Part shown: one piece after another, positions 9,001-12,000 of the stretch
Layout: the number at the start of each line of letters is the position of its first letter
Position numbering within the stretch: the first letter of the stretch is position 1
Virus record (IMG/VR): IMGVR_UViG_2671181056_000012
Span: 1 to 17,566 of that record
Direction: 5' to 3' (one strand)
DNA from: a virus
Taxonomy: Duplodnaviria; Heunggongvirae; Uroviricota; Caudoviricetes
DNA: 17,566 nucleotides
Position numbers: made by a program

Positions 9001-12000
9001 CCCAATTCAACCAACACAGGAAGAACATCAACAGTAAACTCAAGTTGGTAGTGAGCATTCATGCGGCAGAAAGACAGAGAAGAGTCATTAGCAACATACC
9101 CACACGGCTTGTTATTTTCATCGTAGACGCGCTCAATGTAGCCAGCAGTACGCAAGGCCGTTAGTGCTTCTTTAACCTTCGTAGCGCCCTTTTTAGCGCC
9201 TAACAGACGGGTCATTGAATGGCTATCTACGGATTTGCGAACATGAAGTTCAATCAGCTTTTTATTTTCGCGAGTTTTCTTTAATGCCAGTTCGATCCAG
9301 TCGGTTTCTTCAAAGTCTGCATACGGGTTAACAGCTAAACGTTCCTGACGCAGTTTTTCATTTTCTTCTTTCAGTCGTTTCCATTCCTGAATAACGATCA
9401 TTCGACGCTTAACATCGTAACCAGTGACAAGAGTCAGCGTCATTTCTTCGTCTAAGTGATATACTGGTTCTTTAACAGCATATCCTAAGTTATTGATTCT
9501 CTCGACAAATTCAGTTTTGAGCTGATCGATAATACCTAAAGATTCGTACATTTCGCGAATATCGCGCATTACATTGCTGTGCTTCTTATCGGTAAATTCA
9601 GCGATCTGACGAGAAGACATGGTCAGCGGTTTGGTGTTATCAACAACCAGAGACACGGAAGCAGTTTTAGCAGTATTCATAACGGTAACAGTATTCATAG
9701 TAAGATTCCCCTTAATTAACGGTTTTGCGATTTAATCCTCCGTGTTCCGGCAGCATCACCGGAACATTTTTATTTATGATAGAAATTTATTACCAATCGA
9801 TTTCTACTTGGTCTTCTTCATAATAAGGAATCGCATATTCATAACGCCAGTTTTCGATGATTTCACGTTCTTCATTAGTAAGAAGGTGATTGCTAACTGG
9901 AGTCGCATTGTGATTACCAGCTTCGAATTGCTCGCGAACTTCCAGCATTGCATGAATACCAGTTAAGGACATCAGATCAAACGGAACATGCATACTACGG
10001 GAGATAGTTTCACGGGATACGCCCCAATCATTTTCTACATGGCTAGGGCTTACAGAAACGGTTTTGCCGGAGATTTTAACAGTCCAGTCATACAGGGATT
10101 TAGTGATGGTAAATTCTTTCATGTTACATCCTCTTTACAAATCTAGGTCAAATAGGTTCAAAGTTGTCAAGTGCGATAATCATAAAAAAGTCAGAAAATT
10201 TTGTCAACACACCTTGACAAGACGCCAAAGTGTTGACCTAACTTACAGCATATCTAAGCCTTCATCGTAACCGTAGAAGCCATTCTGAGAAGAGAAACAG
10301 ATTGGTGTGTAGTCGTCGTCATCTTCGTCTTGTTCATCGTGTTCTGGGGCTTCCTGAGCGGGTTGTTTACCATAATCAGCCATAATCTGGTCAAGATCGG
10401 CGATCCCATAGTAAGAGCCTAAATCAACGTCATATTCACGAACATCAAACGGCAGGTCATCACGAACAATAATTGCCGGAATGTTGTTGTATTGTTCACG
10501 ACCTTCATCAGTAAAGCAGTCTACGATCACCGTAGGGCGACCATTACGTTTAAGAGCATAGAAAGCAGTTGAGAAATTGGAGTCTTCGGAATGACGAATG
10601 ATGTTATAACCACGATTAGCGAAAACATGCATCATAGCCAGATTATCATCATGGTTCAGACCCAGAAGAATGAAAGGAGTTTTAGTATTGATCATAGTGG
10701 AAATCCTCTAAAAGAAAGTGAATCAAACAAAGTACACTATTATTTATAACGAGAAATTTTTGTCTAATTTGAAAGGAATTGGTATTCAGTCGGCTTCGCC
10801 TCCTTCATAGATTTTGATTAAATCATCATCAAAACGAAGAAGTATCTTTAGAATATAAGAATCTTTCTTTTGGAGAAATTATAATCAGGAAGCAATTTAG
10901 CAACCGAAGGTTGCAATCCCGAAGGGATACCAATACCTTTCATGATCATTAAAGTGATCTAGAATCATCTAGTAACCAGTTAACTACTATTATCTTCAAA
11001 GTGATTATTACTATCTTTCTAGAATCAGTTAGTAACTAGTTTAAAATCCCTTTCAAGAAAATCCTTTCAGAAGTGATTCTCGATGCCACGCAGTGGCGTC
11101 GCAGACGTTTGAGAGTGAGCGAAGCGAGCGAGCAAACTAGTTAATTCCTTCTAAGACCATCTAGTATCATCTAGTTTAAATTAGTGTTACTAGAAGTAAT
11201 TGGTTAGCGCTTCGCGCAGTCGGGCTACGCCCTCCTAATATCTTTTTGGTTATTTGTTGTTTTTAGTTTTACACATGAGCGTAGCGAATGTGTTATATAA
11301 TATCTATGCACGCCCGATCCCCCGTTTTTGCCCCTCGCTAAGTTAATGTTTTATAAAGAGTTTTTCTCACCAATCCTTTTCGGGGGCAAATTTCAGGGGC
11401 AAAAATTAGATTTTCAGGGGCAATTATTGGCATTTCAGGGGCAAAAATGAGGGGCAAAATCACTGTTTCCCAGAATTTCAGGGGCAAAAATAGTAGGTTT
11501 CAGGGGCAAAAATGGGATAGTGAAATCTAGGGGATTTTGGTTCAGGGGCAAAATTCAGGGGCAATTTTCATAGTGTAGTGCTAGTGTAGGTTTGAAAGTC
11601 CTTTCTTGACACTATGTAGGTTTGGTGCTATACTTGACAATTCGAGAAAAAATGTGGTATAATATTTGTATTGAAAGTGAAAATTTACCGATTTTCCTTC
11701 CTATTGTTATCACCGTGTTAAATTGTTATATGTTTGTGAAGATTTGGATCTGAGAGAAAATCTTGTAACAAATCTTTACAATTCATAGCTCAATTAATGC
11801 TCACCGCTTTAGCAAAAAGTGCTATGCCTTTTTCTAAATTGATTGAATATACATCAATTTGGTTAATTCGTGCTCTCCGCTTTAGCAATTCGTGCTGCGG
11901 TTTAACACATTTAACACTTCTGATAACATCTGAATAACATTTTAACATATCTCTGTTATAAATACATATATAAGAGATAAATGTGAGGGGTTGAAAAATA

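What the first reader, a model, noticed from the sequence alone, without database searches (positions are those of the whole stretch)
11381..11568. Array of ten same-orientation 13-bp repeats (TTCAGGGGCAAAAAT) beside tandem promoters
Ten direct copies in ~190 bp is far denser than promoters or terminators would be. The arrangement is the classic signature of a protein-titrating site: origin iterons, a terminase-small-subunit recognition site (cosB/pac-like) or a partition/regulatory centromere. The adjacent 60-aa HTH protein (12085..12267) and its paralogs are natural candidate binders. This could be the origin or packaging site of an uncharacterised phage lineage.
Basis: seen in the sequence. 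Interest (0 to 1): 0.75.

Follow-up and report, generated by a model that had tools for sequence, protein, structure and literature searches.

The report
Phage repeat array matched to orphan protein
The repeat array is real and is very probably the docking site for one uncharacterised 313-residue phage protein encoded 0.8 kb away, most likely forming the replication origin of an unstudied E. coli prophage family that has no recognisable replication genes.

Summary
Ten same-strand copies of (TT)TCAGGGGCAAAA(AT) lie at 11378-11568, with one inverted copy at 11320-11336. Two near-consensus sigma-70 promoters follow directly. The window is a ~35-kb E. coli prophage integrated by a serine recombinase into hicB (ycdX in relatives). 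No isolated phage is a close relative.

Relatives carry one of three unrelated arrays at this spot: A (AGGGGCAA), B (GTGTAGG) or C (CGGGGA). Array type matches only the protein encoded after the 60-aa gene. A always goes with the 313-aa ORF 12380-13321: 18/18 fetched loci and 33/33 complete genomes. The DNA between array and gene, including the 60-aa gene, has been swapped independently. TerS, TerL, the 60-aa HTH protein and its paralogues, Rha and p150 do not track array type.

A relative whose N-domain is 53% identical keeps the core AGGGGCAAAAA in otherwise different DNA. The 313-aa protein has a basic N-domain, a coiled coil and an acidic tail. It has no family or fold match.

Best reading: an autoregulated iteron-plus-initiator (origin) module, about 0.4. 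Main rival: an operator array for a type-specific early-promoter regulator, about 0.25. A packaging site and the 60-aa protein as binder are rejected. The function is inferred, not shown.

The parts
11378..11568 (+). Array A: ten direct copies of (TT)TCAGGGGCAAAA(AT); core AGGGGCAAAA
   Evidence: Copy number varies from 6 to 10 among relatives through repeat-to-repeat deletions. The core is conserved in the diverged relative L062.
11320..11336 (-). Single inverted copy of the repeat (GAGGGGCAAAAACGGGG), 45 bp upstream of the first direct copy
   Evidence: Present at the same relative place in L003, L005, L009 and L062.
11077..11568 (.). Type-A-specific DNA segment (array plus about 300 bp upstream). 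It has no alignable counterpart in type B/C relatives. Its right edge is the last repeat.
   Evidence: BLAST breakpoints; junction
12380..13321 (+). p313, the only gene that covaries with array A and the inferred binder. Basic N-domain about 1-160 (pI 9.8), coiled coil about 182-235, acidic tail, C-terminal motif AAMLHDEMYGTNFS.
   Evidence: covariation; architecture; no family or fold match
11606..11663 (+). Two overlapping near-consensus sigma-70 promoters reading away from the array towards p60 and p313
   Evidence: conserved in relatives
11571..11624 (+). Three copies of the type-B motif (TGTAG[GT]) between the array and promoter P1; one lies in the P1 spacer
   Evidence: (D9). Also found beside the array in L062.
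11664..12050 (+). About 385-nt untranslated leader ending in a terminator-like hairpin (12028-12042 plus a T-run). Strongly structured. Contains the least stable 40-mer of the window (11933-11972).
   Evidence: (z = -6.65)
12085..12267 (+). p60, a small HTH-like protein and first gene of the operon. Lies between the array and p313. Does not covary with array type.
11081..11238 (.). Imperfect palindrome upstream of the array. Each arm carries a small hairpin (11085-11097 on +; 11224-11234, GTA loop on -). The relative L062 shows compensatory changes.
   Evidence: (I4)
8846..8870 (-). Intrinsic terminator of the Rha operon. Its arm TTCAGGGGCAAAAAT is 15/15 identical to the array unit. Present in all array types.

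Best explanation
The array is the cognate cis site of the 313-aa protein encoded by the second gene of the operon that starts at the adjacent promoters.

Inferred mechanism: the basic N-terminal domain of p313 reads the core AGGGGCAAAAA. The coiled coil makes it at least dimeric, so many copies assemble on the ten sites into one nucleoprotein complex. The acidic tail and C-terminal motif, shared with the type-B protein, contact a common partner.

I read this complex as the phage's replication origin with its initiator. It would be an iteron-type module laid out like P1 oriR-repA or RSF1010 oriV, and organised like lambda cro-O: a small HTH gene first, then a protein with a specific N-domain and a shared C-terminus. 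The strong promoters reading away from the array would supply negative supercoiling, and the initiator bound next to them would autoregulate its own operon. Host proteins would supply all enzymatic replication functions.

Shown: the array, the promoters, and the exclusive array-protein pairing. Inferred: binding, oligomerisation and origin function. Confidence that p313 is the binder is about 0.75. Confidence that the complex is the origin is about 0.4.
For: 1. Pairing. Three alternative arrays occupy the same position. A pairs with p313 in 18/18 fetched loci, B with B328/B80 in 15/15, and C with C333a/b in 2/2. In 5426 complete genomes the 33 with array A are the same 33 with intact p313. Four further p313 fragments are IS-truncated remnants without the array.
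2. Exclusivity. An unbiased ORF-cluster test over about 25 of 35 kb in 20 genomes finds no other type-exclusive protein.
3. Recombination between the partners. The promoter/leader and p60 between array and gene occur in different alleles within both A and B, yet the pairing is never broken.
4. Core conservation. L062, whose p313 homologue has a 53%-identical N-domain and a 24%-identical remainder, has 7 direct plus 1 inverted AGGGGCAAAAA in unrelated spacers.
5. Domain logic. The N-domains of A313 and B328 are basic (that of C333a is near neutral) and the remainder of each protein is acidic. A and B share the C-terminal motif. P0131 carries an ORF6N DNA-binding domain in place of the p313 N-domain, on the same coiled coil.
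6. Origin-type context. No replication gene is recognisable anywhere in the prophage. The cis site sits upstream of its own operon's promoter, as in iteron replicons. A mirrored pair of covarying hairpins lies beside the array, like ssiA/ssiB beside the iterons of RSF1010 (PMC8567376). The least stable DNA of the window lies in the same control region. Three perfect DnaA boxes sit next to the homologue's gene in L062.
7. A double lysogen carries two type-A prophages with identical p313, which is awkward for an immunity determinant.
Confidence: 0.4

Rival explanations
1. Operator or immunity array. p313 would be a type-specific regulator, a repressor comparable to the oligomerising Mu c repressor on O1-O3. 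It would coat the array and silence or tune the adjacent consensus early promoters. Types A, B and C would then be hetero-immune groups.
For: The array lies immediately upstream of the 11/12 and 12/12 promoters. In type B the array runs to 11 bp from the -35, and B motifs sit inside P1. The coiled coil fits oligomerisation. The 'AA' C-termini of B328, C333a, P0124 and P0128 recall protease-controlled regulators (from knowledge). An ORF6N ('antirepressor'-type) domain can replace the N-domain. Several specificity types on near-identical backbones is the pattern of immunity regions.
Against: Array A ends 38 bp (window type) or about 95 bp (L003 type) upstream of the first -35 and never overlaps a promoter. 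Consensus promoters need no activator. The gene lies downstream of the promoters it would repress, not divergent from them. One strain holds two different prophages with the identical A module. The 53%-identical homologue keeps the same core, so there is no drive to new specificity. Four conserved HTH/Rha proteins are already available as regulators.
Confidence: 0.25
2. Partition-like or anchoring site. p313 would be a single-protein segregation or tethering factor (as in pSK1 Par or R388 StbA) bound to a centromere-like array upstream of its own operon.
For: Direct repeats lie upstream of the operon that encodes the binder. The protein has an N-terminal binding domain, a coiled coil and a disordered acidic tail, which from memory resembles the architecture described for pSK1 Par.
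Against: The element integrates through a serine recombinase and is always chromosomal: 0 plasmid places and none in PLSDB apart from IS/hic matches. There is no ParA/ParM/TubZ-type NTPase. The repeats are not contiguous or phased.
Confidence: 0.07
3. The array is bound by another protein: the 60-aa HTH protein or its paralogues p77/p200, Rha, or a host factor. p313 would be an unrelated variable 'moron' that merely sits nearby.
For: p60, p77 and p200 are HTH-like paralogues next to the region. p313 has no recognisable DNA-binding fold. Variable cargo genes are common at fixed prophage positions.
Against: None of these proteins tracks array type, and each allele is found with more than one array type. 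A conserved host factor cannot explain three unrelated motifs at one position. p313, B328 and C333 give no credible defence-system hits. The pairing holds in 33/33 genomes even though the p60 gene between the partners has been exchanged.
Confidence: 0.08
4. Terminase recognition site (cosB/pac) bound by TerS.
For: The phage has a gpA-type TerL (5883-7790) and a Nu1-like/phrog_57 TerS (13983-14465, IS-interrupted). Multiple TerS sites are known in cosB and pac regions (from knowledge).
Against: TerS and TerL alleles are distributed independently of array type. The array is 2.4 kb from terS and 3.6 kb from terL, on the far side of other operons.
Confidence: 0.03

Closest known systems
Iteron replicons with an autoregulated initiator (P1 oriR-repA-incA, F ori2-repE, pSC101); from knowledge
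   Same: A cluster of same-orientation repeats with mostly 21-22-bp spacing lies directly upstream of, or around, the promoter of the operon that encodes the binder. There is an extra inverted copy. Copy number is tolerant to change. Array and protein specificity are matched.
   Different: The units are shorter (core 11 nt). The binder has no Rep_3 or winged-helix signature and no known fold. A leader and another gene (0.8 kb) separate site and gene. There are no adjacent DnaA boxes or clear DUE in the window. The element is an integrating phage.
Lambda O protein / ori-lambda and the lambdoid O-ori specificity types; from knowledge
   Same: Gene order is small HTH (cro-like) followed by a ~300-aa protein. 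The N-terminal half is type-specific and matches the repeats, while the C-terminal part is shared between types. Specificity modules are exchanged among otherwise similar phages.
   Different: Lambda's four iterons lie inside the O gene and are palindromic. O has a Pfam family and works with P. Here there is no O or P homologue and the repeats are direct and lie outside the gene.
RSF1010 oriV (RepC iterons plus ssiA/ssiB on opposite strands; PMC8567376)
   Same: Iterons lie beside a large inverted repeat whose two arms each carry a hairpin on opposite strands (11081-11238).
   Different: RSF1010 brings its own helicase and primase. No such genes are present here. The hairpins are unrelated in sequence, and the palindrome is reduced to one hairpin in type C.
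Phage Mu c repressor with operators O1-O3; from knowledge
   Same: About ten short sites spread over ~200 bp in the early control region. The binder has an N-terminal DNA-binding domain, a coiled-coil/leucine-rich oligomerisation domain and a regulatory C-terminal tail.
   Different: Mu operators overlap the promoters and the repressor gene is divergent. Array A overlaps no promoter, and p313 lies downstream in the same operon.
SaPI/PICI Rep-ori pairs; from knowledge
   Same: Island-specific iterons are matched to an island-specific initiator, and swapping types abolishes function.
   Different: SaPI Rep is a helicase with recognisable domains and its ori lies next to rep. p313 has no ATPase.
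Centromere arrays upstream of par operons (R1 parC/ParR, R388 stbDR/StbA, pSK1 Par); from knowledge
   Same: Direct repeats lie upstream of the promoter of the operon that encodes the binder, with autoregulation by the same complex.
   Different: Those repeats are contiguous and phased and occur on plasmids. Here the spacing is irregular and the element is chromosomal.

Membership tests
Iteron-type replication origin | Cluster of direct repeats specifically matched to an element-encoded protein | tested here: met
   Ten direct copies. Exclusive pairing with p313. Binding itself is inferred.
Iteron-type replication origin | Initiator belongs to a known Rep family (Rep_3/RepA winged helix, lambda O, TrfA, etc.) | tested here: not met
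   No Pfam, PHROG, NCBIfam or PDB sequence hit. No fold match.
Iteron-type replication origin | Adjacent AT-rich unwinding element and DnaA/IHF sites | tested here: inconclusive
   The least stable 40-mer of the window is 11933-11972, 365 bp away. A 41-bp stretch of about 70% AT lies between the inverted and first direct copy. The window has only a relaxed DnaA box at 11267, whereas L062 has three perfect boxes beside the homologue.
Iteron-type replication origin | Supports initiator-dependent replication | not testable with these tools
   Needs a mini-replicon or marker-frequency experiment.
cosB/pac terminase recognition site | Lies next to terS/terL and its specificity tracks TerS | tested here: not met
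   terS is 2.4 kb away on the other strand. TerS and TerL alleles are independent of array type.
Plasmid/phage partition centromere (parC/parS/tubC/stbDR) | Adjacent NTPase or dedicated par operon; extrachromosomal lifestyle | tested here: not met
   No ParA/ParM/TubZ domains. 0 plasmid occurrences. Serine-recombinase integration in hicB/ycdX.
Repressor-operator immunity region (lambda/Mu type) | Operators overlap the regulated promoters; repressor expressed independently of them | tested here: not met
   Array A ends 38-95 bp upstream of the first -35. p313 lies downstream of P1/P2 in the same orientation. Type B comes closer.
Repressor-operator immunity region (lambda/Mu type) | Confers type-specific superinfection immunity | not testable with these tools
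   Only indirect evidence: a double lysogen with two identical A modules.
CRISPR or other spacer-bearing array | Regular repeats of >=23 nt separated by unique spacers of similar length | tested here: not met
   Units of 13-16 nt with gaps of 0-17 nt. No Rfam hit.

The most novel reading that the evidence does not exclude
p313 and its type B/C counterparts would be a previously unseen class of modular 'array-reader' initiators. Each would have an orphan-fold, exchangeable N-terminal specificity domain, a coiled coil, and an acidic tail with a recruiting motif. This single non-enzymatic protein would found the origin of a temperate-phage lineage that has no other replication genes. It would act together with a heavily transcribed, highly structured 385-nt leader RNA and a pair of mirrored priming-type hairpins. 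Replication specificity would then be swapped among phages as a split cassette (cis site, mosaic spacer, gene).
Probability: 0.25. Interest if true: 0.75.

Novelty: new variant of a known kind. Interest (0 to 1): 0.6.

Why it matters
This prophage family sits in about 1% of complete E. coli genomes (58 of 5426), yet its whole early region is unannotated. There is no recognisable repressor, initiator, helicase or loader. The array-p313 pairing gives the first testable handle on how such a phage replicates or controls its early genes. It also defines at least three exchangeable DNA-recognition specificities carried by proteins with no known fold. If p313 is an initiator, it adds a new protein family to the short list of origin binders and shows a split cis/trans cassette kept together by selection across a recombining spacer. 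If it is a regulator, it defines a new immunity system. In either case the short, distinct, orthogonal motif-protein pairs (A, B, C) could serve as parts for synthetic biology.

Tried and rejected
- **Packaging site.** Rejected by the lack of covariation with TerS and TerL.
- **p60, p77, p200, Rha or p150 as binders.** Rejected for the same reason.
- **Dispersed host or phage repeat.** Rejected. The apparent second copies per genome are off-register self-alignments.
- **Known RNA family or CRISPR.** Nothing at gathering or relaxed thresholds.
- **Defence cassette.** Only noise-level PADLOC hits, driven by the coiled coil.
- **Remote homology between the A and B/C N-domains.** None by hhalign. 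B and C are weakly related (27%).
- **Partial p313 hits as natural domain chimeras.** They turned out to be IS deletions.
- **Wider relatives.** The GTDB species-representative scan found none. p313 has only 12 representative hits among 1.8 billion proteins.
- **Leader-RNA covariation.** The sequences are too similar: 0 compensatory pairs.
- **Helical phasing.** Not significant for the window array.
- **L062 DnaA-box insert.** No match in E. coli genomes.
- **Literature.** No paper in the held library mentions the motif, the two RefSeq accessions (WP_000898985, WP_032327557), or a ycdX/hicB prophage of this kind.
- **Rho-utilisation site.** I considered that the G-rich top strand shared by all three arrays marks a rut site on leftward RNA. 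I did not pursue it because it does not explain the pairing with p313.
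Full report
**1. Observation**

The sequence at 11378-11568 holds ten same-strand copies of (TT)TCAGGGGCAAAA(AT). Eight have the exact core AGGGGCAA, one has GGGGGCAA (11382) and one is degenerate (AGGGGATT, 11529). A further copy lies inverted at 11320-11336. The 8-mer occurs 11 times in the window against 0.43 expected, and no shuffle reaches 11. Core spacings are 13, 21, 21, 13, 30, 22, 27, 15 and 13 bp. The double unit with 13-bp spacing recurs three times (family D2). Phasing with the helix is not significant (p = 0.09).

Two overlapping promoters follow, 38 bp downstream and reading away from the array. 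They match the sigma-70 consensus at 11/12 and 12/12 positions and both have a TG extension.

**2. Context**

The window is the right-hand half of a ~35.4-kb E. coli prophage. It carries a protease-capsid fusion, a lambda-type portal, a gpA-type TerL (5883-7790, minus strand), a Rha-family protein and an IS3-family element at 14366-15979. Its end lies in hicB.

In strain EC24 the same phage lies in ycdX, bounded by the two halves of that gene. A large serine recombinase sits at the far end. Other relatives sit in hicB. No isolated phage is close: the best TerL identity is 43%.

No replication, repressor or partition domain is detectable anywhere in the prophage with Pfam, PHROGs or NCBIfam.

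The array lies in a 1.4-kb non-coding stretch between the leftward p150-p110-Rha operon and the rightward p60-p313 operon.

**3. The decisive comparison**

I fetched 25 relatives from IMG/VR with the p60 protein, further loci from complete E. coli genomes, and a more distant one from a Logan assembly. At the same position upstream of the early promoters the family carries one of three unrelated arrays, all in the same orientation:
- type A, AGGGGCAA;
- type B, (A)GTGTAGG(TTT);
- type C, CGGGGA.

Array type matches the protein encoded after p60 without exception:
- A with p313: 18 of 18 loci (17 fetched plus the window);
- B with a 328-aa protein plus an 80-aa protein: 15 of 15;
- C with two 333-aa proteins: 2 of 2.

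In 5426 complete genomes, the 33 with array A are the same 33 with intact p313. Four other genomes have IS-truncated p313 fragments and no array.

An unbiased clustering of all ORFs from both ends of 20 genomes (about 25 of 35 kb) finds no other protein exclusive to an array type. TerS, TerL, p60, p77, p200, Rha, p110, p150 and p94 all occur in alleles that cross array types.

The type-A-specific DNA is 11077-11568 plus 12380-13320. The 0.8 kb between them (promoters, leader, p60) exists in at least two unrelated versions, and these combine with A, B and C in different ways. Recombination has therefore repeatedly passed between array and gene without separating them. This is the signature of a selected cis-trans pair. 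The caveat is that the number of independent events is small.

**4. What is recognised**

In locus L062 the p313 homologue P0124 is 53% identical in the N-domain and 24% identical elsewhere. The non-coding DNA there is largely unalignable around the repeats. Even so, it holds seven direct copies and one upstream inverted copy of AGGGGCAAAAA. The conserved element is therefore the 11-nt core, and the layout (an inverted copy, then direct copies, then promoters) is conserved too. Among close relatives the array varies from 6 to 10 copies through repeat-to-repeat deletions, so the sites are redundant.

**5. The protein**

p313 has a basic N-terminal region (1-160, pI 9.8, net +8) and a strongly acidic remainder (net -24). 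The AF2 model gives a moderately confident alpha/beta N-domain (residues 15-155), a long helix (182-235) and disordered acidic segments.

B328 shares this plan with a basic N-domain. C333a has the same layout but a near-neutral N-domain (pI 7.7). A and B share the C-terminal motif (AAMLHDEMYGTNFS versus AHMALHDAIYDTNYS). B and C N-domains are weakly related. The A N-domain is not detectably related to them.

A metagenomic protein, P0131, joins an ORF6N DNA-binding domain to the same coiled coil and to the C-terminal domain of P0124. This is consistent with the N-domain being an exchangeable DNA-binding module.

p313 has no hit in Pfam, PHROGs, NCBIfam, PADLOC or PDB sequences and no fold match. 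Only 12 representatives turn up among 1.8 billion proteins.

**6. Mechanism: best reading**

The cis site sits just upstream of the promoter of the operon that encodes its binder. That is the standard layout of autoregulated iteron replicons and par operons, not of divergent repressor-operator switches. The following points favour an origin.
- The phage has no other candidate replication gene.
- The operon order, small HTH protein then a ~300-aa protein with a specific N-half and a shared C-end, parallels lambda cro-O.
- About 150 bp upstream of the array lies an imperfect palindrome (11081-11238). Its two arms each carry a small hairpin on opposite strands, with compensatory substitutions in L062: GCCAC/GTGGC becomes GTCCC/GGGAC, and GGGC/GCCC becomes GGCC/GGCC. 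Iterons beside mirrored single-strand initiation hairpins are the layout of RSF1010 oriV (PMC8567376).
- The least stable 40-mer of the whole window (11933-11972) lies in the same control region.
- L062 has three perfect DnaA boxes and AT-rich repeats directly before the homologue's gene.
- Strong promoters reading away from the array would supply negative supercoiling behind the polymerase (inference from the twin-domain model).

I put the origin reading at about 0.4, and the narrower claim that p313 binds the array at about 0.75.

**7. Rivals**

*Regulator or immunity reading (about 0.25).* It is supported by the position next to very strong promoters, by type-B repeats that reach and enter the promoter, and by the Mu-repressor-like architecture. 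It is weakened by several points. Array A never overlaps a promoter. The gene lies downstream of those promoters. Specificity is retained at 53% identity. Strain BS74R-D carries two different prophages of the family with identical A modules; gene conversion between them could also explain that identity.

*Partition (about 0.07).* This is unlikely for an element that is always chromosomal and has no NTPase.

*Another binder with p313 as unrelated cargo (about 0.08).* This conflicts with the covariation data and cannot explain three motifs at one site.

*Packaging (about 0.03).* Rejected, as described above.

**8. Relation to known systems and novelty**

The system works like an iteron/initiator or operator/regulator pair. 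It fails the membership tests that depend on protein family (no Rep, O, ParR or repressor fold), on adjacency of an unwinding element and DnaA boxes (inconclusive), and on promoter overlap (not met for A).

It is best filed as a new variant of a known kind: a matched cis-array/trans-protein specificity cassette. It has three unusual properties. The binder has an orphan fold. The site and the gene are split by a freely recombining promoter-leader-p60 segment. At least three interchangeable specificities exist on near-identical phage backbones.

No paper in the held library mentions the motif, the two RefSeq accessions (WP_000898985, WP_032327557) or this prophage family.

**9. Limits**

Nothing here shows binding, replication or regulation directly. 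The structure model is shallow (five sequences). The covariation rests on closely related phages of one species. The origin-type features (hairpin pair, unstable DNA, DnaA boxes in one relative) are individually weak. The experiments listed under next steps would settle the question quickly.

Noticed in passing
window 8846-8870: AAAAAAGCCCCTGAAATTCAGGGGCAAAAAT is a perfect hairpin with a T-run on the minus strand, so it is the intrinsic terminator of the Rha operon. Its arm TTCAGGGGCAAAAAT is 15/15 identical to the array-A unit. The site is conserved in type A, B and C phages. Array A may have been seeded from this terminator arm, or p313 may have an extra palindromic site here.
   Followed up: partly
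window 11664-12050: The tandem consensus promoters drive a ~385-nt untranslated leader that ends in a hairpin plus T-run (12028-12048) just before the p60 RBS. It folds far better than shuffles (z = -6.65) and contains 32-nt direct repeats (11792/11865). It exists in two unrelated versions that have no covarying protein partner. It could be a regulatory, immunity or primer RNA. No Rfam match and no covariation signal, because the sequences are too similar.
   Followed up: partly
window 11081-11238: An imperfect palindrome whose arms each carry a small GC hairpin on opposite strands. L062 shows compensatory changes. The region is structured on the + strand (z = -2.95). In type C it is reduced to a single hairpin.
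   Followed up: partly
window 10804-10889: About 80 bp of the non-coding region next to the p150 promoter matches unannotated intergenic DNA of T4-like (Krischvirus and related) phages at about 77-82% identity. The stretch is conserved in all array types. Its meaning is unknown. The prophage also carries T4-flavoured genes (seg-like GIY-YIG endonucleases and an 'inhibitor of protease' PHROG hit).
   Followed up: partly
window 14366-15979 (with 13983-14465 and 15939-16169, minus strand): An IS3-family element, 99.9% identical to copies on many enterobacterial plasmids, interrupts the Nu1-like/phrog_57 small terminase gene. This particular prophage copy is therefore probably packaging-defective.
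   Followed up: partly
window 7876-8478, 8507-8740, 12085-12267: p200, p77 and p60 are paralogues sharing a ...GI(D/S)xS(T/Q)F(H/Y)K..KK(Y/L)(D/G)IK... HTH-like module. p200 appears to carry it twice. They are conserved across array types and are candidate general regulators.
   Followed up: no
window 12309-12338: A strong 12-bp hairpin between p60 and p313 is followed by a T-run only on the minus strand. It is conserved in L061 and L062. It could terminate an antisense transcript from within the p313 start region, or act as an RNA element in the operon.
   Followed up: no
L062 5676-5900 (between p60 and the p313 homologue): A ~320-bp insert with three perfect DnaA boxes (TTATCCACA at 5692, 5712 and 5851), AT-rich direct repeats (TAAAAATCAAT) and an inverted repeat. 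It is absent from the window and from all complete E. coli genomes.
   Followed up: partly
L020 7303-7545; L014 7314-8315; L062 6930-7163: Types B, C and the L062 lineage encode a second coiled-coil protein that ends in (R/K)PTLR(I/V/L)VA, directly after the array-specific protein. The window's type A lacks it. Several of the array-specific proteins end in ...AA (AYAYAA, DFAA, RRAA, LKAA), which recalls protease-recognition tails.
   Followed up: no
NZ_CP063332.1 (L145, L146): Strain BS74R-D carries two prophages of this family, one in ycdX and one in hicB. Their p313 and p60 are identical, but their p150, Rha and TerS alleles differ. This points either to tolerated double lysogeny with the same module or to gene conversion between residents.
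   Followed up: partly
window 997-1087 and 1-68: ARAGORN calls a 91-nt tRNA-Gln(ttg) inside the head-tail gene region. It overlaps ORF 852-1280 on the other strand and is possibly spurious. The first 68 bases of the window match the imcA region of P1-like phage RCS47 at 97%.
   Followed up: no
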